From: an uncultured Eubacteriales bacterium
Lineage (GTDB): Bacteria > Bacillota > Clostridia > Christensenellales > CAG-917
Direction: 5' to 3'
NCBI GenBank assembly: GCA_900547975.1
Contig: URIX01000002.1
Coordinates: forward strand, 17,879-81,878
DNA length: 64,000 nt
A model generated the notes under the pieces. That model saw only the letters and a list, made by a program, of their open reading frames with translations. It ran no database searches and had not been told where the DNA came from. Shown here one piece after another: positions 281 through 51,486 of this stretch (within the stretch, counting starts at the first letter, position 1; each line of letters opens with the position of its first letter). Position numbers and translations under genes: made by a program.

Positions 281-645
281 GGGGGTGTTCTGGATTCGAC
301 ATTCGGTCTGATGCGGGATAAGCACGTCGTAGGCTCGGCTACGTTAAAACGGAACGTTAAAATTAAACGCAAAAAACAATCAAAAGAGCTCCTCTATGGA
401 GTTCGCTCTTGCTGCATAATTTAAGTCGGCACGTCGACACGGGGTTTTCTGTTCCCTCGTCAATCGGCGTCAGAAAAACAGACAACGCAATCTGATTTCT
501 CGGTAGGGTTGTTGTCAATACGAGATTATCGAGGCAAGGTTTGTAGGTGAACCGAACTTAGAAAAATTTTAATCACCAACTAAACGTGTAGAAAGTGCCG
601 AGTACGGTCGGGTGGACCGGGGTTCAAATCCCCGCACTTCCACCA
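281..645 (+). ncRNA. ssrA: tmRNA (transfer-messenger RNA)
   Basis: 5' GGGGGTGTTCTGGATTCGAC and 3' GGACCGGGGTTCAAATCCCCGCACTTCCACCA form the tRNA-like domain. Internal tag frame 369-419 (GCA AAA ... GCT GCA TAA) encodes AKNNQKSSSMEFALAA. Confidence 0.93.
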
Positions 646-652
646 GAAATGC

Positions 653-680
653 AAAAACCGCGTATCTAACGCGGTTTTTT
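653..680 (+). terminator. rho-independent terminator of ssrA, repeated at 823-851 and 995-1022
   Basis: AAAAACCGCG-tatctaa-CGCGGTTTTTT hairpin followed by a T-run. Confidence 0.8.
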
Positions 681-698
681 CATTTAGTGGGAATGTGT

Positions 699-751
699 GG
701 GGATTATGCGATTTTGGCAAAATCGCATCACGGCAATGCCGTGTGAACCCC
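699..751 (+). other. split inverted T-arm module, unit 1
   Basis: GGGGATT, then hairpin ATGCGATTTT/ggc/AAAATCGCAT (706-728), then hairpin CACGGC/aat/GCCGTG (729-743), then TGAACCCC. With the hairpins removed the flanks rejoin to the exact reverse complement of the ssrA T-arm (619-633). Confidence 0.7.
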
Positions 752-869
752 TTTCGGCTGCACGCGATTGACCTATGGTAGCAATCGCTGTTGGGCAAAT
801 CCCGTACTTCCACCAGAAATGCAAAAAACCGCGTATCTAACGCGGTTTTTTCATTTGGTAGGAATGTGT

Positions 870-922
870 GGGGATTATGCGATTTTGGCAAAATCGCATC
901 ACGGCAATGCCGTGTGAACCCC
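870..922 (+). other. split inverted T-arm module, unit 2
   Basis: Same sequence and layout as 699-751, one repeat period downstream. Confidence 0.7.
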
Positions 923-1041
923 TCTCGGCTGCACGCGATTGACCTTTGGTAGCAATCGCTGTTGGACAAAACCCCGCACTTCCACCAGAAATGCAAAAAC
1001 CGAGTATCTAACGCGGTTTTTTCATTTAGTGGGAATGTGTG

Positions 1042-1088
1042 CGGGGATTGCACGATTTCATCGTGCCGTTGCGATGCAACCTGAACCG
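1042..1088 (+). other. split inverted T-arm module, unit 3 (diverged)
   Basis: CGGGGATT, then GCACGAT/ttc/ATCGTGC (1050-1066), then GTTGC/gat/GCAAC (1068-1080), then CTGAACCG. The layout matches units 1-2 but both stems have different sequences. Confidence 0.6.
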
Positions 1089-1113
1089 TGTTTGGCCAGA
1101 TTTTCTAATAAGT

Positions 1114-1141
1114 AAAAACCGCATTAGATGTGCGGTTTTTT
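1114..1141. terminator. bidirectional terminator closing the ssrA repeat array and sdaA
   Basis: AAAAACCGCA-ttagatg-TGCGGTTTTTT, A-run on one side and T-run on the other, between convergent transcription units. Confidence 0.7.
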
Positions 1142-8847: not shown

Positions 8848-8889
8848 AAAAAAGACTGCAATTTTGTATCAAAATTGCAGTCTTTTTTT
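8848..8889. terminator. bidirectional terminator
   Basis: AAAAAAGACTGCAATTTT-gtatc-AAAATTGCAGTCTTTTTTT. Confidence 0.75.
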
Positions 8890-9072
8890 GGTGCGGATGA
8901 CAGGACTTGTAGCGAGAGAAACGAGCGTAATAGCGATTGTTGCGCAGTATGCGCCAATCGTGTCAGCTGCACAAGTGCAGGTTGCAAACATTGTTTGCCG
9001 ACAATTGAAAAATTGTCGCAAGTCCGTTGCCGTAACAAAAAAAAGACGAACGAAGTCGTCTTTTGTTGCGTG
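8889..9072 (-). repeat. stand-alone inverted copy of the element that follows tRNA-Leu
   Basis: Reverse complement matches 10414-10590 with only a few substitutions. It ends in CAAGTCCTGTCATCCGCACCA (8909-8889), a tRNA-Leu 3' end copy with one mismatch. Confidence 0.9.
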
Positions 9073-9855: not shown

Positions 9856-9946
9856 ATATCTCGGCGACAATTACGCTTTATGCGGTCGTTGTCGCTCCCT
9901 AGATATTTTGAACGACCATTGCTGATCGTTCAATTCCGCTTGCGCG

Positions 9947-10104
9947 TGGAGCGGGAGACGGTGTGGTCGCTTTCGCGACAACCTTCGGTGCGAACCCTTG
10001 CGGGTCTGCGATTGCATCGCACTTCACTGTGTGAAGCCGAATCCCGTCAACCGATTGCTCGATTTTCAAAGATTCTTTTTCACTCACACTATCGTTGCTT
10101 CCGT
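9947..10104 (-). repeat. 158-bp insert downstream of tRNA-Gly(GCC), ending in a direct copy of the tRNA's last 15 nt
   Basis: TGGAGCGGGAGACGG at 9947-9961 repeats 10105-10119. Split inverted T-arm module at 10046-10001 (minus strand): CGGGATTCGG, CTTCAC/aca/GTGAAG, TGCGAT/gca/ATCGCA, GACCCG. Confidence 0.85.
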
Positions 10105-10179
10105 TGGAGCGGGAGACGGGATTCGGACCCGCGACTTTCACCTTGGCAAGGTGACACTCTACCACTGAGTCACTCCCGC
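10105..10179 (-). tRNA. tRNA-Gly (anticodon GCC)
   Basis: GCGGGAG...CTCCCGC-T-CCA, anticodon loop TT-GCC-AA. Confidence 0.93.
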
Positions 10180-10328
10180 AAGCACAAATTACTATATCAA
10201 ATCAATTTGCAAAAAGCAACAATTTTTTGCCATAAAGTTAAAAATATTTTATAAAATCAGCATATAACACTCTTAATTTTGTTTTTGCTTTACAGAAACC
10301 GAAATTATGCTATAATAATGATGTTTTT

Positions 10329-10413
10329 GCGGATGTGGTGAAATTGGCAGACACGCAAGATTTAGGTTCTTGTACTATATAGTGTGCAGGTTCAAGTCCT
10401 GTCATCCGTACCA
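10329..10413 (+). tRNA. tRNA-Leu (anticodon UAG), class II with long variable arm
   Basis: GCGGATG...CATCCGT-A-CCA, anticodon loop TT-TAG-GT, 85 nt. Confidence 0.92.
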
Positions 10414-10590
10414 ACAAAAGACGACTTCGTTCGTCTTTTTTTTGTTACGGCAACGGACTTGCGACAATTTTTCAATTGTCGGCAAACAATGTTTGCAACC
10501 TGCACTTGTGCAGCTGATGCGATTGGCACATACTGCGCAACAATCGCTATTACGCTCGTTTCTCTCGCTACAAGTCCAGTCATCCGTACC
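10414..10590 (+). repeat. 177-bp element downstream of tRNA-Leu, ending in a copy of the tRNA 3' end
   Basis: Terminator AAAAGACGACTTCGTTCGTCTTTTTTTT. Module GGACTT, CGACAATT/tttc/AATTGTCG, GCAAAC/aat/GTTTGC, AACCTG (10455-10502). CAAGTCCAGTCATCCGTACC (10571-10590) matches tRNA 10393-10412 at 19 of 20 positions. Confidence 0.88.
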
Positions 10591-10750
10591 CAAAAAGCCT
10601 CTAAGCAGTAGATGTTTAGCGGCTTTTTCATTTTTCGCTAAGAAAAACTGTTTATCTTTTGCCACAAAACAATAAAATCATTGATATTTTGAGCAAAAAA
10701 TTCCAAGAAAATAAAAAGCCAAACCGCCACCGGTGCGGATTGGTAAAGTG

Positions 10751-10924
10751 TGGTGGAGATAAGGGGATTCGTAGGAAGCGACCTGGACGCTTCCGTAATA
10801 GCGTCAGCGTCAGCCCGTAGTGGTTCGCACGGTGAAACCGTGGTGCGATTTTTGAAAAAATCGCGCAATCCACTTATTCCCCACAAAAAAAACAAGCCGA
10901 ACAGAGTTCGACTTGTGTTCTTTT
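10751..10924 (-). repeat. 174-bp insert downstream of tRNA-Ala, ending in a perfect 21-nt copy of the tRNA 3' end
   Basis: TGGTGGAGATAAGGGGATTCG at 10751-10771 equals 10925-10945. Terminator at about 10886-10920. Split inverted T-arm module at 10874-10819 (minus strand): AGTGGATT, two hairpins, CGAACCACT. Confidence 0.88.
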
Positions 10925-11000
10925 TGGTGGAGATAAGGGGATTCGAACCCCTGGCCTTCGCATTGCGAACGCGACGCTCTACCAACTGAGCCATATCCCC
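10925..11000 (-). tRNA. tRNA-Ala (anticodon CGC)
   Basis: GGGGATA...TATCTCC-A-CCA with the G3:U70 alanine identity pair, anticodon loop TT-CGC-AA. Confidence 0.92.
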
Positions 11001-43789: not shown

Positions 43790-44851
43790 ATGCCTTTTGA
43801 AGTAATAGATTTGTTTTGCGGAGTCGGAGGGCTTACATGCGGAATGCGACAGGCAGGCTTTCGTGTTGTAGCCGGATTCGACAATGATCAAACATGTGAA
43901 TATACATATAGCCACAATAATCATACGGAATTCCATTGTAGAAATATCAAAGAAGTAACAGGAGCGGAAATAAACGGTTGTTATTCGTCCGGTGCTCAGA
44001 AAATCCTTGTAGGTTGCGCGCCATGTCAACCGTTCTCGACAATGAGCTATAAGCGTTTTATTGCATCACCAAGAGAAAATGATATGAAATATGATTTATT
44101 ATCGGAATTCGGAAGACTAATAAAGGACGTTCAGCCTGTCATTGTTGCTATGGAAAACGTGCCCGAGTTAAGGAATACAGGTGTTTTTCAAAGCTTTTTA
44201 GAAACTTTGAGAGATAACGGATATTTTACCGACGGCGGTCGTGTTGTATATTGCCCCGATTATGGCATTCCGCAAAACAGGCACAGATTTATTCTATTAG
44301 CATCAAGAATCGGAGAGATTACACTTCTCCCTCCTACTCACAAGCGAAAAGAAGTAACGGTTCGTCCGTTTATTGAAAAATTACCTCCCATTGCAGCCGG
44401 AGAAATGTATGAATTCGATAAACTCCACCGCACGGCAAGTCTTTCCGAAATAAATCTAAAACGTATTAAAGCGTCTGTTCCCGGTGGAACTTGGAAAGAT
44501 TGGCCCGAAGAATTAAGATGCGCTTGTCACAAAAAAGATTCGGGACAAACATATACGTCTGTTTACGGTAGGATGTCTTGGGATAAAATCGGACCGACTA
44601 TGACAACACAGTTTTTCTGTTACGGCACAGGACGATACGGTCATCCGGAACAAGATAGAGCTCTATCCTTACGCGAAGGAGCTTTGTTGCAAACGTTTCC
44701 CCGAGATTACGAATTCTTCCCGCCAGACGTCACTGATTATTGCATGAGAGACGTGGCACGGCACATAGGGAATGCTGTTCCTGTTCGCTTGGGCGAAATC
44801 ATAGGATGCTCAATAAATAAACATTTAGAAAAATATACGGAGGTGCACTAA
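43790..44851 (+). CDS. DNA (cytosine-5)-methyltransferase, copy 3
   Basis: DLFCGVGG, GCAPCQPFS, MENVPEL, HIGNAVPV. Confidence 0.9.
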   Translation: MPFEVIDLFCGVGGLTCGMRQAGFRVVAGFDNDQTCEYTYSHNNHTEFHCRNIKEVTGAEINGCYSSGAQKILVGCAPCQPFSTMSYKRFIASPRENDMKYDLLSEFGRLIKDVQPVIVAMENVPELRNTGVFQSFLETLRDNGYFTDGGRVVYCPDYGIPQNRHRFILLASRIGEITLLPPTHKRKEVTVRPFIEKLPPIAAGEMYEFDKLHRTASLSEINLKRIKASVPGGTWKDWPEELRCACHKKDSGQTYTSVYGRMSWDKIGPTMTTQFFCYGTGRYGHPEQDRALSLREGALLQTFPRDYEFFPPDVTDYCMRDVARHIGNAVPVRLGEIIGCSINKHLEKYTEVH

Positions 44852-46737
44852 TGCCAATAGACTTTAAATTAAAAGTTAGTCCGAGAATGCTTGAATTGCT
44901 CAGTAAAGATTTGTATACAAATATGTATTTCGTATTGGCTGAGTTAATCGCCAATTCATATGATGCAGATGCTGAAAATGTATATGTGTATATTGATGAT
45001 GATGAAATACGGGTAGAAGATGATGGTAACGGTATGAGCCCGGACAATCTAAACGATAAGTATTTATTGGTTGGCGGGGAATCCAGAAATTCCGAAGATA
45101 ATGCACGCACATCTAGGAAGAATCGTTTAAAAATGGGAAGGAAAGGAGTTGGTAAATTGTCGGCGCTTTCTATTTCAAACGGTTTTAAACTAGTTACTGT
45201 TTGTGATGGATATACCATTGGATTGTTTATTCCGAATCGTATAGAACATGATGATGAATCGTTAAGAGTTTTGAGCCAAAACGAGTTTTCATTAAAAAGA
45301 ATTACGAATCATGGAACGGCTGTTATAATGGAGTCGCCGAAGGTGGCAATTCCGAAGCTACAAGATACTGTATTAAAGAATCTTGCAAAAATATTTCCAA
45401 ATGATATAGAAGATTTTAAAATACATGTTGTGTTTAAAGGCGAAGAGAAGATTTTGATTCCCGATGAGAAAGACGTGATTATGCGGTTGGCTTCGTTTAT
45501 TTCTATAGGGGACGAAAAAAGATATTTGGCTGAATCGTTGCCAACAAATGAGAAAAATTTACAAAAGGATCATTTGGATGCTTATGAAGAAACTATAGAA
45601 ATGTATGATAGTAACAATGTGCTTAAAGAAATTACGGTGCGCATATATGGCTGGATTGGTACTTACAAAACTACTCGCGGGATGAAGAGGGAAATTAATG
45701 AGTTTTCAGACAACTATTTGGCAATTTTCGCACACAATAAAATGGGATTGCGAAATATATTACCAATAATCGGAAAAAACCGTGTTTATGAGAGTTATAT
45801 TGTTGGGAATTTGTATATAGATGCCTTTGAAGCTGCTAATTTCCCAGACATGGCAGGAACAAACCGTCAAGGTTATAATGAAAACGATCCCAGGTGGATT
45901 ACAGCATTAAAATATATAAGAGAAATAACGGATAGAATTGTAAAACTGCATGAACAGTTTGCCATTGCCGAGAAAATTGAAAAAGACACGGAAAAAGAAG
46001 CGAAAAAAGAAGCCGATGAGTTAGCTTTGAAAGAACGTCTTGACCGCGCTACCAAAAATATAACAGAAAATATAGCGCGTAAAATAAATGATAATACGTC
46101 TCCTGAACAGATCAAGCAAGCGGTTTCATCGGAAATTGAAGCCATGAAACCCATTCTCGGATTTAAGTCTATAGTGGATGCGAATAAAAAGAAAATAATG
46201 ATAAGCCAAACATGGAAAGATAAAATTGTATCCGATGTAATTTATCAAATGCTTCTATTTAATGGCGTACCCAAAGAGGACATCATATATTCAAATGGAC
46301 CCGATCCGGAAACGAACTTACCTGAACGAGATATTTATGGTTATCTACAGAAATTCTTTATTCACAGTGCATCCACCGAAATGATATATGTGCTGTTTGT
46401 AACAAGTAAGAATGTTTTGAATGTTGAAGAAGATAACCCTTCTGCGAGTTGGGGCGTTTTAATGGAAATAGGTGCGGCATGGGTTACGAAAAAAGATCAC
46501 TGGATTTTTAATATAGACAATTTCAAGCCCGAGCAGCCGCTTAATATTGAAGATAAATGGGTCGCAATTTATACGATAGATGATGAAGCTGGAAACAAAA
46601 TTTTATCTCTAACAGAGGCTATGGCAAATAGCTTTTGCAATAAAATAATTGCAACCTGTTCCGCATGCGGATATACCGCAAAAGCTTTTGAGAATAATAA
46701 AAAGTATTTGGTAGATAACTTTGTAGCGATTTGTTAA
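44851..46737 (+). CDS. GHKL (HATPase_c_3 / MORC-like) ATPase with coiled-coil linker and TIR-like C-terminal domain
   Basis: Bergerat-fold motifs ELIANSYDA, DDGNGM, GRKGVGKLS. Lys/Glu-rich helix at about residues 370-420. C-terminus has KIMISQTWKDK...IIYSN...VLFVTSKN...SASWGVLMEIGAAW. The start overlaps the methyltransferase 3 stop (TAATG). Confidence 0.75.
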   Translation: MPIDFKLKVSPRMLELLSKDLYTNMYFVLAELIANSYDADAENVYVYIDDDEIRVEDDGNGMSPDNLNDKYLLVGGESRNSEDNARTSRKNRLKMGRKGVGKLSALSISNGFKLVTVCDGYTIGLFIPNRIEHDDESLRVLSQNEFSLKRITNHGTAVIMESPKVAIPKLQDTVLKNLAKIFPNDIEDFKIHVVFKGEEKILIPDEKDVIMRLASFISIGDEKRYLAESLPTNEKNLQKDHLDAYEETIEMYDSNNVLKEITVRIYGWIGTYKTTRGMKREINEFSDNYLAIFAHNKMGLRNILPIIGKNRVYESYIVGNLYIDAFEAANFPDMAGTNRQGYNENDPRWITALKYIREITDRIVKLHEQFAIAEKIEKDTEKEAKKEADELALKERLDRATKNITENIARKINDNTSPEQIKQAVSSEIEAMKPILGFKSIVDANKKKIMISQTWKDKIVSDVIYQMLLFNGVPKEDIIYSNGPDPETNLPERDIYGYLQKFFIHSASTEMIYVLFVTSKNVLNVEEDNPSASWGVLMEIGAAWVTKKDHWIFNIDNFKPEQPLNIEDKWVAIYTIDDEAGNKILSLTEAMANSFCNKIIATCSACGYTAKAFENNKKYLVDNFVAIC

Positions 46738-48043: not shown

Positions 48044-48748
48044 TTATTTGTCGTCGTTTTTAGAAACGATATATTTGAACAAGCGTTTTACGTCTTTGCT
48101 TGACAAGAAGGGATAAAGCTCGTCCATATCTACGTCTTGAAGTTCGCCCTCAACATATTTGTCGACAAGTTTTGTAAGACACTCTTCCGACACAAACGGC
48201 GCAAGAGAAGTGAGGGAGTGTGTATATTTTTTATCGTTGTCGAGTGCGATTTTCAAGAACAATGCGTCACAATCGTTTTCGCTAAGAAACGGCATTATCG
48301 CGCAAAGGTTCAACCCGTCGTATTTGTCCGGATCGCTTAAGATGTCTTCCACGATTTCATGGATGTCATCGTCATCGAGGAAAGGAAGTATTTGTACGAG
48401 CTTATTCTTCTTGTCGGGCTTTTTGTCATCGCCGCCTAGAAAAATATTGCCCAAAGATGCGCCCACGCCATATCCCTTTTGTGCGATTTTTTCGGCTTTT
48501 TTCAATGCGCTTTTCACAAAATCCCACGACAATGCGGTTTTATCCGACGATTCGTTTTCTTCATCTTTTTTATCTTCGATTTCTTCTTCGAGATCATCGA
48601 GTTCTTCGAGAACATCCTCGAATTTGTCTTTTTCGTCCTCGTCCGTAAAAACAAAGTCGGATTTTTCCGCGCGTTGTTCTACGGCTTCTTCAATCGATAT
48701 AGGTTCGTATATCGTTTTTCCGTCTTGCAATTTCTTTTTGAGTATCAT
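48044..48748 (-). CDS. acidic hypothetical protein with four PF(L/V)S/D..D....L repeats
   Basis: Asp/Glu-rich linker (EDVLEELDDLEEEIEDKKDEENE) and repeats PFLDDDDIHEIV, PFLSENDCDALF, PFVSEECLTKLV, PFLSSKDVKRLF. Translationally coupled to the XRE gene. Confidence 0.55.
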   Translation of the reverse strand: MILKKKLQDGKTIYEPISIEEAVEQRAEKSDFVFTDEDEKDKFEDVLEELDDLEEEIEDKKDEENESSDKTALSWDFVKSALKKAEKIAQKGYGVGASLGNIFLGGDDKKPDKKNKLVQILPFLDDDDIHEIVEDILSDPDKYDGLNLCAIMPFLSENDCDALFLKIALDNDKKYTHSLTSLAPFVSEECLTKLVDKYVEGELQDVDMDELYPFLSSKDVKRLFKYIVSKNDDK

Positions 48749-49197
48749 TGTGTGACCTCCGTTCTCATAAATTTTTGTTCGGCGGGCGTAAGCCTCGGTT
48801 TCAGATTTTCCATATCGGTTGTCAGCATTCCGTCCTTTATCGCTTTGAGAATCATTATTCTTTCCGTTTGCGAAAAGAGGTAAAAGTTTGCCGGAATGTC
48901 GATTTTTATGTTACCGTCAACGATGTTCCTCACCACAAACAGCCGCTCGTGTCCCGCAAAAATGTCATCCGGATTGACATCGATTTTTTTGTCAAGACAT
49001 AATAGTTCTTCAATGGTGATGTGAAAGATCTCGGACATGTTCAACAAATCGTCGATGGAGGGAACACCCGTGCCGTTTTCCCATTTGGACACGAGCTGCC
49101 TTGTCACGAAAAGTTTGTTGGCAAGCTCCTCCTGTGTGAGATTTTGCCTTTTCCGCCTCGACGCTATATTGTTGCCGACAGCAATGAAATCGATCAT
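48745..49197 (-). CDS. XRE family helix-turn-helix regulator
   Basis: QNLTQEELANKLFVTRQLVSKWENGTGVPSIDDLLNMSEIFHITIEELL. AAGGAGG RBS before the ATG at 49197. Confidence 0.8.
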   Translation of the reverse strand: MIDFIAVGNNIASRRKRQNLTQEELANKLFVTRQLVSKWENGTGVPSIDDLLNMSEIFHITIEELLCLDKKIDVNPDDIFAGHERLFVVRNIVDGNIKIDIPANFYLFSQTERIMILKAIKDGMLTTDMENLKPRLTPAEQKFMRTEVTQ

Positions 49198-49424
49198 TCT
49201 GCGCCTCCTTACAATTGAATTATATATCGTGCGCCGAAATATGTCACGCAACCGTCCGTTGCATTTTTATGTCAAAATGGTTTTGATATAATTAAATTAG
49301 GAGCTTAAATTTACTAACTAATCGCTAATGCCATAAGCAAGAAACAATACGGAGATGATAAATTGCGGAGTATCGTAAATTCAGACTATGTAAAAACACT
49401 CTATCGAATAGGATTTAAACGTGT

Positions 49425-49590
49425 TTATTGTTTTTTTGTTTGGGAATAGTGTGTTGTGCTGCTGCTTTTGAATACTTGCGTGCGGCGCCTGCGTAATAGC
49501 TTGCCATAATTAATGTAGCATTTGCTGGTTCGGTAATGATGGCGTCCACACCGAATCTTTTGAAATAGTAAGTCGCTTGATTTATTGAAC
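49425..49590 (-). pseudogene. possible glycerophosphodiester phosphodiesterase C-terminal remnant
   Basis: The translation contains YYFKRFGVDAIITEPANATLI, resembling the GVDGIITD end of GDPD enzymes. There is no start codon or N-terminal part. Confidence 0.25.
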
Positions 49591-49609
49591 AATCAAAATA
49601 GTATATATT

Positions 49610-49787
49610 GCCCTCGATTTTTACAGATACCGGCGAAACAAACAGATATTATAAATGCGCCGGCAAAAAGAAATATCACAATGGTTGCACGAAAAGTCAA
49701 GTGCGCAAAGAGTATCTCGAAGATATTGTCGTCAACGCAATCATAGATGAGTTGAATCGCCTGGGAGCAATAGAGTACTACCGATGA
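49610..49787 (+). pseudogene. large serine recombinase C-terminal zinc-ribbon fragment
   Basis: The in-frame translation reads YYKCAGKKKYHNGCTKSQVRKEYLEDIVVNAIIDELNRL. It has no start and is fused directly to the integrase remnant. Confidence 0.6.
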
Positions 49788-50237
49788 TATACACCTTGAC
49801 GAAAGATACATTGTAATAAACAAGCAAATGCAAAACGGTGAAGTTGTCCCGCCCAAAACCGATAGCGGAAATAGAAACGTACCGATTATCGATGTTTTGT
49901 ATCCGTATTTGAAAGACATAGACTTTTCAAAGCACGAAAGATTGTTCCCGATAAAAGAACACGCATTGCGTGTGTATTTCAAAACGCATTGAAAGCAAGT
50001 GGCTTGGACGGTATGGGTTTTACAATTCATTGCTTGCGCCATACCTACGCAACGAGATGTGCTGAAAATAATGTAAATCGTGTTGTTGTTCAAAAATGGG
50101 TTGGACATTCAACGGCGGATATGACAGAAAACGTTTATACGCACATCAATAATGATTTCGAGAAAGACGAAATCGAAAAATTTAATAAGGGGGTAAACGA
50201 TACATATAATCAAGAAAAAAAGACTATTCGGAAATAA
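49786..50237 (+). pseudogene. tyrosine recombinase/integrase catalytic domain, N-terminally truncated and frameshifted
   Basis: PPKTDSGNRNVPII...LFPIKEHALRVYFKT, stop at about 49990, then in another frame GFTIHCLRHTYATRCAENNVNRVVVQKWVGHSTADMTENVYTHI (the R..HxxR..Y catalytic signature). Confidence 0.8.
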
Positions 50238-50275
50238 AAAAATTAGACTATATACTGAGTATATAGTCTAAAAAA
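50238..50275 (-). terminator. terminator of the five-tRNA operon
   Basis: TTAGACTATATAC-tcag-GTATATAGTCTAA followed by TTTTTTT on the minus strand. Confidence 0.75.
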
Positions 50276-50351
50276 TGGTGACCCACCGGAGATTCGAACT
50301 CCGGACCATCGCATTAAAAGTGCGGTGCTCTACCGGCTGAGCTAGTGAGTC
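50276..50351 (-). tRNA. tRNA-Lys (anticodon UUU)
   Basis: GACTCAC...GTGGGTC-A-CCA, anticodon loop CT-TTT-AA. Confidence 0.92.
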
Positions 50352-50536: not shown

Positions 50537-51073
50537 GTTTGATTTTCTGCCCGTTCGAATCCGATGAAGTTATCATTGAACTCGAACTTATATCGACTCT
50601 ATTTAGAGTGATGTTTCAAAAGTGGGGTGAATAGTGGGATTCGCGCCGTTTGACCTATGCCGAGCGACTCGCGCTACACAGGCACGCATCTTTATGCGTT
50701 TCCGTACGACTTTTCGAAGGTCTGCACTATCACGCCGGGGCAGTCAAACAATTCACAGGATTGTTTGATTTTCTGCCCGTTCGAATCCGATGAAGTTATC
50801 ATTGAACTCGAACTTATATCGACTCTATTTAGAGTGATGTTTCAAAAGTGGGGTGAATAGTGGGATTCGCGCCGTTTGACCTATGCCGAGCGACTCGCGC
50901 TACACAGGCACGCATCTTTATGCGTTTCCGTACGACTTTTCGAAGGTCTGCACTATCACGCCGGGGCAGTCAAACAATTCACAGGATTGTTTGATTTTCT
51001 GCCCGTTCGAATCCAATGAAGTTATCATCGAACTCAAACTATATTGACTCTTTTCAGAGTAATTTATCAAAAG
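50537..51073 (-). repeat. tandem array (about 2.4 units of 225-226 bp) downstream of tRNA-His, each unit ending in the tRNA's last 21 nt
   Basis: TGGGGTGAATAGTGGGATTCG at 50623-50643 and 50849-50869 equals tRNA-His 51074-51094. Units 1-2 are near identical; the unit next to the tRNA is slightly diverged. Confidence 0.9.
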
Positions 51074-51267: not shown

Positions 51268-51412
51268 GTAATGGAGCGGGTATTTGGAATGCCGCACTTT
51301 TGCATGCAACATATTCCACTAAACCGCAAGCCGTTTTGGACAGGTTTTGTACGATGCGGCAATCTCGCTTTTCGCTCGATGCGGACCGTCCAATTCCCGT
51401 CAAAGACGGTAA
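51268..51412 (-). repeat. 141-bp insert downstream of tRNA-Gly(UCC), ending in a 14-nt copy spanning the tRNA 3' terminus
   Basis: GTAATGGAGCGGGT at 51268-51281 repeats 51409-51422. On the minus strand GACGGGAATTGGAC just after the tRNA resembles the inverted T-arm GATGGGAATCGGAC. Confidence 0.7.
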
Positions 51413-51486
51413 TGGAGCGGGTGATGGGAATCGGACCCACGCAATCAGCTTGGAAGGCTGACATTCTACCATTAAACTACACCCGC
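51413..51486 (-). tRNA. tRNA-Gly (anticodon UCC)
   Basis: GCGGGTG...CACCCGC-T-CCA, anticodon loop CT-TCC-AA. Confidence 0.92.

What the first reader, a model, noticed from the sequence alone, without database searches (positions are those of the whole stretch)
699..1088. Recurrent structured module: inverted copy of the neighbouring RNA gene's T-arm, split by two covarying hairpins
In the tmRNA units, GGGGATT-[hairpin]-[hairpin]-TGAACCCC (699-751, 870-922) collapses to GGGGATTTGAACCCC when the 38-nt hairpin pair is removed. That is the exact reverse complement of the ssrA T-arm GGGGTTCAAATCCCC (619-633). The same design follows three tRNAs, always in the same orientation relative to the upstream RNA gene.
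- tRNA-Ala (minus strand, 10874-10819): AGTGGATT-[2 hairpins]-CGAACCACT against T-arm complement AGGGGATTCGAACCCCT. The one difference is a compensatory base-pair change.
- tRNA-Gly(GCC) (10046-10001): CGGGATTCGG-[2 hairpins]-GACCCG against CGGGATTCGGACCCG.
- tRNA-Leu (10455-10502): GGACTT-[2 hairpins]-AACCTG.
The hairpin sequences differ between loci: ATGCGATTTT/AAAATCGCAT with CACGGC/GCCGTG; GCACGAT/ATCGTGC with GTTGC/GCAAC; CTTCAC/GTGAAG with TGCGAT/ATCGCA; CGACAATT/AATTGTCG with GCAAAC/GTTTGC. Order, stem length (5-10 bp) and 3-5 nt loops are preserved, which is covariation and implies selection on structure (RNA or DNA cruciform). The inverted copy also extends into the acceptor region, so the gene's 3' end and the module form a long imperfect inverted repeat around the terminator. 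I do not recognise this as any described element class.
Basis: seen in the sequence. Interest (0 to 1): 0.85.

Follow-up and report, generated by a model that had tools for sequence, protein, structure and literature searches.

The report
Structured repeats trailing tRNA/tmRNA genes
The hairpin module is real, but it is the middle of a 145-226-base non-coding repeat that follows tRNA and tmRNA genes and copies their 3' end both directly and inverted: a gut-Clostridia counterpart of the E. coli "tRNA-linked repeats", whose function has been unknown since 1978.

Summary
Observation confirmed. GGGGATT-[2 hairpins]-TGAACCCC lies at 699-751 and 870-922, with none expected by chance. A third copy lies at 1042-1090, and cognate versions follow tRNA-Ala, tRNA-Gly(GCC) and tRNA-Leu.

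In 88 related loci the flanks match the adjacent gene's T-arm: 0-2 mismatches of 14, against 3-7 for other tRNAs. The hairpins covary strongly. A covariance model finds the module only inside repeats behind tRNA/tmRNA genes.

The module is not free-standing. It sits inside a repeat unit made of:
- a terminator;
- conserved blocks and further hairpins;
- a direct copy of the gene's last ~21 nt, from the T-loop to CCA.

This is the architecture of E. coli tRNA-linked repeats (Rfam RtT), but there is no sequence homology.

Units vary in number (0-4) and type between close relatives. New types lie next to the gene, and the ancestral terminator stays at the far end.

My best reading (confidence about 0.4) is a DNA cassette that recombines inside the gene's last 21 nt, as integrative islands do, with no enzyme identified. 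The rivals are an RtT-like processed RNA (about 0.3) and a passive by-product (about 0.2). I class it as a new variant of a known but unexplained kind.

The parts
281..645 (+). tmRNA gene (host gene); its T-arm is at 619-633
   Evidence: ARAGORN; Rfam RF00023, 152.6 bits
646..815 (+). tmRNA-linked repeat unit 1. Contains terminator 654-680, inverted acceptor/T-stem copy about 685-705, module 699-751, hairpin 3 at 764-788 and direct 3'-end copy 796-815.
   Evidence: Tandem Repeats Finder: period 171, 2.4 copies, 93%; inverted repeats; covariance-model hit 77.6 bits
816..987 (+). tmRNA-linked repeat unit 2. Contains terminator 823-851, module 870-922, hairpin 3 at 935-959 and direct 3'-end copy 967-987.
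988..1113 (+). Truncated unit 3. Contains terminator 995-1021 and the inverted copy. Its module at 1042-1090 has different hairpins (GCACGAT/ATCGTGC and GTTGC/GCAAC). It has no blocks and no direct copy.
   Evidence: covariance-model hit 42.2 bits, E 4e-11, not in the seed; sequence
10751..10924 (-). tRNA-Ala(CGC)-linked unit. Contains terminator 10892-10916, module 10819-10874, conserved blocks CGGGCTGACGCT..GCTATTACG at 10794-10818, hairpin 4 at 10775-10793 and direct 3'-end copy 10751-10771.
10414..10591 (+). tRNA-Leu(TAG)-linked unit. Contains terminator 10416-10439, inverted copy 10444-10460, module 10455-10505, GCTATTACG at 10546-10554 and direct 3'-end copy 10571-10591.
9947..10104 (-). 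tRNA-Gly(GCC)-linked unit inside the Gly-Lys operon. It has no terminator. Module at 10001-10046; direct 3'-end copy at 9947-9964.
   Evidence: the site is empty in L055 and L042
50537..51073 (-). tRNA-His-linked repeats: 226 nt x 2.5 copies. Direct 3'-end copies at 50624-50640 and 50850-50866. The inverted T-arm copy is not split by hairpins (for example 50999-51018).
   Evidence: Tandem Repeats Finder
51270..51412 (-). tRNA-Gly(TCC)-linked unit. Has an inverted GGGAATTGGAC and a degenerate direct 3'-end copy at 51273-51289.
8889..9072 (-). Orphan Leu-type unit, 97% identical to 10414-10591. It is not adjacent to a tRNA gene. The homology runs from one CCA position to the next.

Best explanation
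The module is the centre of a non-coding repeat unit, 145-196 nt long (226 nt at tRNA-His), that follows tRNA and tmRNA genes. It is a clostridial counterpart of the E. coli tRNA-linked repeats.

Reading in the gene's direction, a unit consists of:
1. a bidirectional terminator;
3. conserved blocks (GGCTGAYGC ... GCTATTACG) with one or two more hairpins;
4. 'CTA';
5. a direct copy of the gene's last ~21 nt, from T-loop C56 to CCA.

I propose that it behaves as a DNA cassette.
- It is gained and duplicated by a crossover inside the last ~21 nt of the gene, as integrative islands are.
- The incoming unit supplies a fresh 3' end and a terminator.
- The previous 3' end and terminator are pushed downstream.
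- In one strand, the direct and inverted copies can fold into a duplex replica of the gene's 3' end. That helix and the hairpins would be the cis-acting structure for this recombination.

Shown: the architecture, the cognate matching, the hairpin covariation, the restriction to tRNA/tmRNA flanks, the copy-number and type differences between relatives, and the distal position of the ancestral terminator.

Inferred: the crossover mechanism, the single-strand folding, and the existence of a recombinase acting in trans. No such enzyme was identified.
For: Architecture and reach:
- The same unit design occurs behind tmRNA, Ala(CGC/GGC), Arg(ACG), Lys(CTT/TTT), Leu(TAG/CAG), Val and Gly(GCC).
- Direct 3'-end copies lie 144-196 nt downstream of many tRNAs.
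- Units at different tRNAs share terminator types, hairpin types and blocks. Only the tRNA-derived segments differ.
- Some Ala units still carry the tmRNA-type TGAA, which points to transfer between genes.

Insertion behaviour:
- Filled and empty sites have identical outer flanks, for example tRNA-Gly(GCC) in the window and L040 against L055 and L042. The same holds for Lys(CTT), Leu, Asn and His.
- All tmRNA loci that share the downstream serine dehydratase gene end with the same A-type terminator. Foreign B-type units lie next to the gene (L012: B,B,A; L071: B,A,A).
- L071 is the same species as the window but has a different proximal unit.
- The direct copy starts at T-loop C56. Islands that use T-stem-region sites leave the same kind of displaced 3' fragment (PMC4383910). 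For Ms6 integrase, the target follows the copy of the T-loop core carried by the element (PMC1762012).

Structure and expression context:
- Strong terminators precede the units and no promoter-like site lies inside them.
- Hairpins covary with almost only Watson-Crick pairs and show no sense-strand G.T excess.
- The module occurs only inside these units: in 64 kb scanned with filters off and in 656 kb of related loci.
- At least one unit is present behind tmRNA in 13 of 14 assessable species-level genomes.
Against: - No recombinase was found. The genes flanking the arrays are housekeeping genes. The only integrase in the window is a frameshifted remnant at another tRNA, and it has no module.
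- Matches in mobile DNA are almost absent. There were none in viral contigs and none in plasmids. The single hit in the phage collection is an unverified scaffold with an ordinary tRNA-Leu array.
- Ten or more different tRNA targets would need either many integrases or one that reads only the conserved T-loop.
- The internal junction (hairpin 4-CTA|C56) lacks the symmetric left half of a normal core site.
- Filled and empty differences can also arise from deletion between the 21-nt repeats. Copy-number change can arise from unequal crossing-over.
- E. coli repeats of this class are transcribed and processed (PMC8144298).
- The Gly-type units lie inside tRNA operons and lack a terminator, so they must be transcribed; the His units likewise lack a strong terminator.
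- The closing helix with an NCCA tail is what tRNA-processing enzymes recognise (my own knowledge).
Confidence: 0.4

Rival explanations
1. RtT-like processed RNA. [quoted passage not shown] Its 5' inverted copy pairs with the 3' direct copy. This forms a mimic of the acceptor/T-stem helix with an NCCA tail. The tRNA-processing enzymes then cut out a stable, multi-hairpin small RNA. That RNA would act as a regulator or as a decoy for tRNA-binding proteins.
For: - Rfam RtT's consensus has exactly this closing helix and a ccaCCACCA tail.
- The Ala and tmRNA units fold with a 15-17 bp closing helix that leaves the CCA free, with z-scores of -4.1 and -2.75.
- E. coli repeats of this class are made by terminator read-through, are processed, and bind Hfq and CsrA (PMC8144298).
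- The Gly units lack terminators and lie within tRNA operons; the His units also lack a strong terminator.
- The orphan unit's homology runs from one CCA to the next, which is the predicted RNA.
- In Arg, Gly and Val units the left flank pairs perfectly with the direct copy rather than with the right flank.
- Prevalence behind tmRNA is high.
Against: - A strong terminator stands before every a/b-type unit, so distal units would hardly be transcribed. They still keep perfect hairpins.
- No promoter-like site lies inside the units.
- Sense-strand G.T pairs (5) are fewer than A.C pairs (12) in the two hairpins. The antisense strand folds slightly better.
- Copy number and type change between strains of one species, which is unusual for a needed RNA.
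- No Rfam family matches, RtT included.
Confidence: 0.3
2. Passive by-product. Heavy transcription and terminator hairpins at tRNA 3' ends provoke template switching and unequal crossing-over. These create inverted and direct duplications. Gene conversion against the conserved tRNA gene, and within each palindrome, keeps the copies matched. Nothing is selected.
For: - Direct-inverted-direct copies of one segment around a palindromic terminator are what two template switches produce (my own knowledge).
- The 5-nt loop of the A-type terminator is flipped at 1114-1140 and in L009.
- The tandem copies are near-identical.
- Chimeric units and rearrangements occur (L037).
- Non-homologous families, including E. 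coli RtT and the His and Asn types, share the design.
- The wobble counts are the same on both strands, as expected for DNA.
Against: - Units at ten or more tRNAs share homologous terminators, hairpins and blocks. They therefore spread from a common source rather than arising locally.
- Series of compensatory substitutions in four hairpins point to a constraint on pairing.
- The interior is not derived from the tRNA: local alignments score no better than shuffles.
- The same B/ii/b unit sits next to the tmRNA gene in several genomes with different surroundings.
Confidence: 0.2
3. Guide-bearing element. The two flanks of the module (L...R) are a split guide. They pair with the T-arm strand of the target gene, in the manner of the target-binding loop of an IS110 bridge RNA. 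This would direct a recombinase to the T-loop.
For: - The two flanks are jointly complementary to a continuous T-arm strand. The hairpins bulge out at or within a few nucleotides of the T-loop position (C56) where the direct copy begins.
- The flanks change with the target.
Against: - No IS110-type or other recombinase ORF lies in or next to any unit.
- Both halves pair with the same strand, unlike bridge-RNA guides (my own knowledge).
- The insertion position of the hairpins varies between families, and some families have no split at all.
- No promoter-like site was found.
Confidence: 0.05

Closest known systems
E. coli tRNA-linked repeats (TLRs; Egan & Landy 1978, Rudd 1999, as summarised in PMC8144298), including RtT RNA (Rfam RF00391)
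   Same: - Lie directly behind tRNA or rRNA genes, with 1-5 units per locus spaced 150-180 nt apart.
- The last 18-19 nt are identical to the 3' end of the upstream gene.
- An inverted copy of the T-stem/acceptor (GGGGAAGGAT) pairs with that direct copy to close a multi-hairpin fold.
- They sit between successive terminators.
- Their function is unknown.
   Different: - No detectable sequence or covariance-model similarity.
- In E. coli the inverted T-arm is an intact 5-bp/7-nt hairpin. Here its loop carries two covarying hairpins.
- This family has its own conserved blocks.
- It also follows tmRNA.
- The direct copy is 21 nt, starting at C56.
Integrative genomic islands at tRNA/tmRNA genes (tyrosine integrases, T-loop/T-stem crossover class; PMC4383910, PMC1762012)
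   Same: - The target gene is regenerated by sequence carried on the element.
- A displaced 3' fragment that begins in the T-loop marks the far end.
- They form tandem arrays.
- The newest member lies next to the gene.
   Different: - Units are 145-226 nt long and have no integrase or any other ORF.
- They carry an inverted copy of the target.
- No matching phage or plasmid attP was found.
Integron attC sites and the folded attP of CTX phage (my own knowledge)
   Same: - Structure is conserved while sequence varies.
- An imperfect inverted repeat can fold in one strand into a duplex that resembles the double-stranded target.
- The tip of the fold can be branched.
- They form cassette-like arrays next to a fixed site.
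   Different: - No RYYYAAC/GTTRRRY boxes.
- No integron integrase was seen.
- Unit boundaries lie in the direct 3'-end copy, not in the module.
- Units carry no gene.
REP/BIME/REPIN and MITE-type intergenic palindromes (my own knowledge)
   Same: Short, non-coding, hairpin-forming and repeated.
   Different: Those are dispersed and conserved in sequence. This module occurs only inside units linked to tRNA/tmRNA genes, and its flanks change with the neighbouring gene.

Membership tests
tRNA-linked repeats (TLR, E. coli definition in PMC8144298) | Located in a tRNA or rRNA operon, immediately downstream of the RNA gene | tested here: met
   Units start at the CCA of tmRNA, Ala, Leu, Gly, His and other genes. 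Of 69 full-length model hits, 51 lie 38-54 nt after a gene called in the locus, or in its 2nd or 3rd unit. The other 18 are in loci where the gene is cut off or was not called; those inspected follow a 3'-end copy. One orphan copy at 8889-9072 is the exception.
tRNA-linked repeats (TLR, E. coli definition in PMC8144298) | The 3'-terminal ~18-19 nt of the unit are identical to the 3' end of the upstream gene | tested here: met
   The copy is 15-23 nt long, usually 21 nt from C56 to CCA, with 0-3 mismatches.
tRNA-linked repeats (TLR, E. coli definition in PMC8144298) | One to five units per locus, spaced about 150-180 bp apart | tested here: met
   There are 1-4 units per locus. Spacing is 144-196 nt, 226 nt for His, and 317 nt where a nested insert is present.
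RtT RNA (Rfam RF00391) | Match to the family covariance model | tested here: not met
   No RtT hit in the window at the gathering threshold. No hit in 600-1200 at E<=10, and none in L011 units at E<=1. The same model scores 133-138 bits on E. coli.
RtT RNA (Rfam RF00391) | Closing helix between the inverted T-stem/acceptor copy and the direct 3'-end copy, leaving an NCCA tail | tested here: met
   The minimum-free-energy folds of the Ala and tmRNA units have this helix. The RtT consensus is shown.
Integrative island at a tRNA gene | Regenerated target gene plus a displaced 3' fragment in the same orientation | tested here: met
Integrative island at a tRNA gene | Integrase gene inside the element | tested here: not met
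   Units hold no ORF that is not spurious. Flanking genes are housekeeping genes.
Integron attC | R''/R' boxes (RYYYAAC / GTTRRRY), with the recombination point inside the folded site | tested here: not met
   The module flanks follow each T-arm and not that consensus. The boundaries of polymorphic units lie in the direct repeat, outside the module.
IS110-family bridge RNA | Encoded at the end of an element that carries the DEDD recombinase gene | tested here: not met
   No such ORF lies beside any unit in the window. None was seen among ORFs within 4 kb downstream of 18 tmRNA genes in related loci, judged from ORF lists without Pfam scans.
REP/BIME-type dispersed palindromes | Many copies dispersed in intergenic regions, independent of RNA genes | tested here: not met
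   The covariance-model scan gave no hits away from tRNA-linked units in 64 kb or in 656 kb.

The most novel reading that the evidence does not exclude
tRNA-linked repeats, here and in E. coli, would be a general class of self-retargeting, protein-less cassettes. Each carries a direct and an inverted copy of its host gene's 3' end. In a single strand these copies fold into a replica of the target duplex. A host or mobile-element recombinase that reads only the conserved T-loop would then insert the cassette into whichever tRNA or tmRNA gene it matches. This would be an integron-like or CTX-like single-strand pathway operating at tRNA genes.
Probability: 0.12. Interest if true: 0.88.

Novelty: new variant of a known kind. 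Interest (0 to 1): 0.6.

Why it matters
- tRNA-linked repeats have been known in E. coli since 1978, with no accepted origin or function.
- An unrelated family in gut Clostridia shares the same design. It has many variable copies, clear structural covariation, cognate matching to at least nine RNA genes, and differences between close strains.
- This suggests the design reflects a general process at tRNA gene ends, not an E. coli oddity.
- It also supplies the comparative material needed to test whether these units are mobile DNA, processed RNAs, or both.
- In practice, such units confuse island finders, tRNA fragment calls and assemblies around tRNA and tmRNA genes.

Tried and rejected
1. Known RNA family. 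Rfam at gathering and at permissive thresholds found only tRNA, tmRNA and chance hairpin hits.
2. Decayed tandem copy of the tRNA gene. Local alignment of unit interiors to the 5' 55 nt of the cognate tRNA, direct or inverted, scored no better than shuffles.
3. attP of a phage or plasmid.
   - Viral contigs gave 0 hits for the tmRNA 3' 21-mer and 0 for the block pattern.
   - Plasmids gave no match.
   - The single hit in the phage collection is an unverified scaffold that carries an ordinary tRNA-Leu(CAG) with two units.
4. Linked recombinase. Pfam scans of genes beside the tmRNA array and the tRNA-Lys(TTT) island, and ORF lists downstream of 18 tmRNA genes in related loci, showed housekeeping genes. 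The only integrase is a frameshifted remnant at tRNA-Lys(TTT).
5. Generic palindromic repeat. Rejected by the covariance-model scans.
6. Sense-strand RNA signature. Wobble counts do not favour the sense strand.
7. Whole-unit consensus structure. RNAalifold on a plain MAFFT alignment of whole units gave only a partial structure, because the variable hairpins misalign. I therefore built a seed from 12 modules of equal layout.
8. Promoters inside units. No promoter-like site was found by the consensus scan.
Full report
**1. What is in the window**

ARAGORN and Rfam find a tmRNA gene at 281-645(+) and nine tRNA genes. The tmRNA is followed by a 171-nt tandem repeat at 625-1041 (2.4 copies, 93% identity).

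The tmRNA T-arm GGGGTTCAAATCCCC is at 619-633. The tmRNA 3' end and the sequence after the terminator form a 37-nt inverted repeat that is 78% complementary (627-663 and 669-705).

Cognate versions of the module follow three tRNA genes:
- tRNA-Ala, at 10819-10874(-);
- tRNA-Gly(GCC), at 10001-10046(-);
- tRNA-Leu(TAG), at 10455-10505(+).

**2. The module is part of a larger unit**

Reading in the direction of the RNA gene, each locus shows the same order of parts:
1. the gene's CCA;
2. a bidirectional terminator;
3. an imperfect inverted copy of the acceptor-3' strand and the 3' strand of the T-stem ('X-L');
4. hairpin 1;
5. hairpin 2;
6. the inverted copy of the 5' strand of the T-stem ('R');
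7. a linker with conserved blocks and one or two further hairpins;
8. 'CTA' or a G-run;
9. a direct copy of the gene's last ~21 nt, starting at T-loop position C56 and ending in CCA;
10. another terminator.

Direct copies in the window are at 796-815, 967-987, 10751-10771, 10571-10591 and 9947-9964. Further copies belong to tRNA-His and tRNA-Gly(TCC).

Six of the ten RNA genes in the window carry such units. Four of these have the two-hairpin module. The tRNA-His repeats (226 nt x 2.5, 50537-51073) contain the inverted T-arm unsplit.

**3. Related sequences**

A scan of one genome per species with the tmRNA 3' 20-mer returned 16 loci. They come from Christensenellales-like Clostridia metagenome-assembled genomes.
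- Of 14 assessable loci, 13 carry one to four units behind tmRNA.
- The units are a mosaic of two terminator types, at least four hairpin-pair types and two linker types.

A metagenome scan with the linker blocks CGGGCTGACGCT...GCTATTACG returned 71 loci.
- Roughly half are chance matches in coding DNA.
- The rest are units behind tRNA-Ala(CGC/GGC), Arg(ACG), Lys(CTT/TTT) or tmRNA. One of these loci also carries a related unit behind tRNA-Val.

A hit in the phage collection, on an unverified scaffold, showed two units behind tRNA-Leu(CAG).

Units at different genes share terminators, hairpin types and blocks. Only the tRNA-derived segments differ. The units are therefore one homologous superfamily that has been retargeted many times.

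**4.

*Cognate T-arm match.* For nine representative modules, the two flanks match the adjacent gene's T-arm with 0-2 mismatches of 14. Non-cognate tRNAs with a different T-stem give 3-7 mismatches. tmRNA, Ala and Arg have nearly identical T-stems, so they cannot be told apart on the stem alone. A search with each gene's own half-sites found the split copy 37-57 nt after the gene in dozens of loci, with inserts of 32-43 nt.

*Specificity.* I built a covariance model from 12 modules.
- In the 64-kb window with filters off, it found only the tmRNA- and Ala-linked modules at full length. These include 1042-1090, which was not in the seed. The Gly and Leu modules hit weakly.
- In 656 kb of window plus related loci, it found 69 full-length hits. 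Fifty-one lie behind an annotated gene or in its array. The rest are in loci where the gene is cut off or was not called.
- These loci were fetched because they contain units. The meaningful point is therefore the absence of hits in the remaining sequence.

*Covariation.* On the model-fitted alignment of 53 distinct rows:
- 93.8% of cells are paired, against 79.5% in shuffles (0 of 500 shuffles reach the observed value);
- 17 of 21 pairs have changes on both sides;
- slid controls give 37-60% pairing.

Two caveats apply. The alignment is fitted to the structure, and the sequences fall into a limited number of related types. Even so, the hairpin-1 variants form compensatory series such as GCACGAT, CCACGAT, GCGCGAT and GTGTGAT, each with a matching partner arm.

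**5. Which pairings matter, and on which strand**

The 42 distinct modules fold as a three-way junction: L:R plus the two hairpins. The L:R stem shows one clear compensatory change, in the Ala units of the window lineage (GGGG/CCCC to GTGG/CCAC). L082 looks like a half-way state.

In other units L and R do not behave as a selected pair:
- In Arg(ACG) and Gly(GCC) units, L and R are faithful inversions of a T-stem that contains G.U. L:R therefore carries an A.C mismatch on the sense strand, while L pairs perfectly with the direct copy.
- In the Val unit, L:R does not form at all, but L pairs with the direct copy.

Whole units fold with a 15-17 bp helix between X-L and the direct copy that leaves CCA free. 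The z-scores are -4.1 and -2.75, and the antisense strands score similarly.

Within hairpins 1 and 2 there are 706 Watson-Crick cells, 5 G.T, 12 A.C and 10 other mismatches. Antisense folds are on average 1.6 kcal/mol more stable.

There is thus no signature of a sense-strand RNA. The data fit DNA hairpins, an antisense RNA, or elements that turn over quickly.

**6. Comparison with what is known**

PMC8144298 summarises the E. coli tRNA-linked repeats:
- 22 units at ten loci, with one to five per locus;
- each ends with 18-19 nt identical to the 3' end of the upstream tRNA or rRNA gene;
- spacing of about 150 nt in the example given (rrnB; 175-178 nt at tyrT);
- no known function.

I fetched the tyrT-tyrV region. 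Each 178-nt unit contains three tRNA-derived pieces:
- GGGGAAGGAT, the inverted copy of ATCCTTCCCC from tRNA-Tyr;
- a T-arm-like hairpin;
- the direct copy AATCCTTCCCCCACCACCA.

Rfam's RtT model scores 133-138 bits there. Its consensus closes the fold by pairing the inverted copy with the direct copy, leaving ccaCCACCA as a tail. That is the same architecture as here.

RtT does not match the window or the related units even at permissive thresholds. This is therefore an analogous or very distant family, not a member of RF00391. The two-hairpin expansion and the blocks are new.

**7. Evidence on how units come and go**

Several sites are filled in some genomes and empty in others, with identical outer flanks:
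- tRNA-Gly(GCC): empty in L055 and L042, filled in the window and L040;
- tRNA-Lys(CTT): empty in the window and L055, a 60-nt remnant in L040, a 317-nt unit in L042;
- tRNA-Asn, tRNA-His and tRNA-Leu show the same kind of difference.

All tmRNA loci that share the downstream serine dehydratase gene end with an A-type terminator. B-type units lie next to the gene (L012: B,B,A; L071: B,A,A). L071 is the same species as the window, yet it has a different first unit.

The breakpoints must therefore lie inside the ~21-nt 3' segment. The incoming DNA brings a new 3' end and terminator, and the old ones move outward. Integrative islands leave the same pattern at tRNA genes (PMC4383910).

For the Ms6 integrase, the target follows the copy of the T-loop core carried by the element (PMC1762012). 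One T-loop enzyme could therefore, in principle, serve cassettes with different cores. That step is inference.

Other observations bear on mobility:
- In L075 the most distal copy carries another tmRNA acceptor variant (GCATCTCC). This fits either an exchange of 3' ends or import from another species.
- L037 shows a chimeric unit, with a tmRNA-type module and an Ala-type direct copy, and a hydrolase gene between units. The repeats therefore also drive rearrangements.
- The window has an orphan Leu-type unit at 8889-9072(-). It is 97% identical to the one at tRNA-Leu, and its homology runs from one CCA to the next.
- A preprint reports that the E. coli tyrT/rttR region is enriched in exonuclease-resistant DNA under stress (bioRxiv 10.1101/2024.07.17.603846). 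This is only a hint.

**8. Weighing the explanations**

For a DNA cassette:
- the insertion pattern;
- the mosaic structure and rapid turnover;
- terminators in front of every a/b-type unit, and no promoter-like site;
- covariation dominated by Watson-Crick pairs.

Against a DNA cassette:
- no recombinase was found;
- no mobile-element counterpart was found;
- there are many target genes;
- every polymorphism could also come from deletion or unequal exchange between the repeats.

For an RNA:
- the RtT precedent;
- the tRNA-like closing helix;
- the units inside tRNA operons that lack terminators;
- the CCA-to-CCA orphan copy.

I rejected a decayed tRNA duplicate and a generic palindrome.

I put the DNA-cassette reading at about 0.4, the processed-RNA reading at about 0.3, a passive by-product at about 0.2, and a guide-type mechanism at about 0.05. 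The DNA-cassette and processed-RNA readings are not mutually exclusive.

**9. Verdict**

- The thing is a new, structurally distinctive variant of the tRNA-linked repeat class. It is widespread in gut Clostridia and apparently mobile or at least recombinogenic.
- Its mechanism and function remain open, but they can now be tested.

Noticed in passing
window 8889-9072 (-): An orphan copy of the tRNA-Leu-linked unit, 97% identical to 10414-10591(+). It lies downstream of a GNAT acetyltransferase gene and is not next to a tRNA gene. Its homology begins at the last CA of the tRNA's CCA and ends at the CCA of the direct copy. With the tRNA-Leu unit it flanks a 1.3-kb segment in inverted orientation.
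   Followed up: partly
L007 about 570-720; L042 (units at tRNA-Lys-CTT and tRNA-Leu); L037 128-255; inverted in L040 next to tRNA-Leu; L071 unit 3: A second small element of about 150 nt, starting CCGCAAGC.GAGAGAGACGCAAGCGCG.AGCATTTGCGGA and ending GCGTAGA. It is inserted at one position of the conserved block (GGCTGA|CGCT). In one case it lies inverted after GGATGA of the tRNA-Leu 3' end. In L071 a larger, gene-carrying insert sits at the same point. The block looks like an insertion hotspot.
   Followed up: partly
window 10105-10179 and 51413-51486 (also L040, L042, L049, L055): Both tRNA-Gly genes have T-loops TCCGAAT and TCCGATT. That places C at position 55, where tRNAs almost always have U (pseudouridine 55).
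   Followed up: no
window about 49300-50240 (+), next to tRNA-Lys(TTT) at 50276-50351: A tyrosine-integrase gene broken by frameshifts; its C-terminal HxxR...Y region is still readable. An XRE-type HTH gene (48745-49251) and a 628-aa HATPase_c_3 protein (44851-46737) lie upstream. This is probably a decayed island. No far-end repeat of the tRNA is present in the window, and there is no hairpin module.
   Followed up: partly
window 1114-1140; L009 5540-5568: The terminator shared with the convergent serine dehydratase gene is the A-type terminator with its 5-nt loop flipped (TAGAT instead of ATCTA). This is the expected product of a template switch within a hairpin.
   Followed up: no
L037 1-2152: A chimeric unit with a tmRNA-type module but a tRNA-Ala-type direct copy. 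It is followed by an alpha/beta-hydrolase-like gene (580-1548) and then an Ala-type unit. The repeats appear to have joined two loci or captured a gene.
   Followed up: partly
L075, distal end of the tmRNA array: The last direct copy reads CAAATCCCCGCATCTCCACCA, while the gene reads ...GCACTTCCACCA. Both variants can pair with the same 5' strand GGGGGTG, so 3' ends appear to be exchangeable between lineages.
   Followed up: no
window 580-1053 (-) and other ORFs over 9880-10994: ORFs of 101-157 aa that run through the repeat arrays and tRNA genes are mechanical artefacts, not genes.
   Followed up: no
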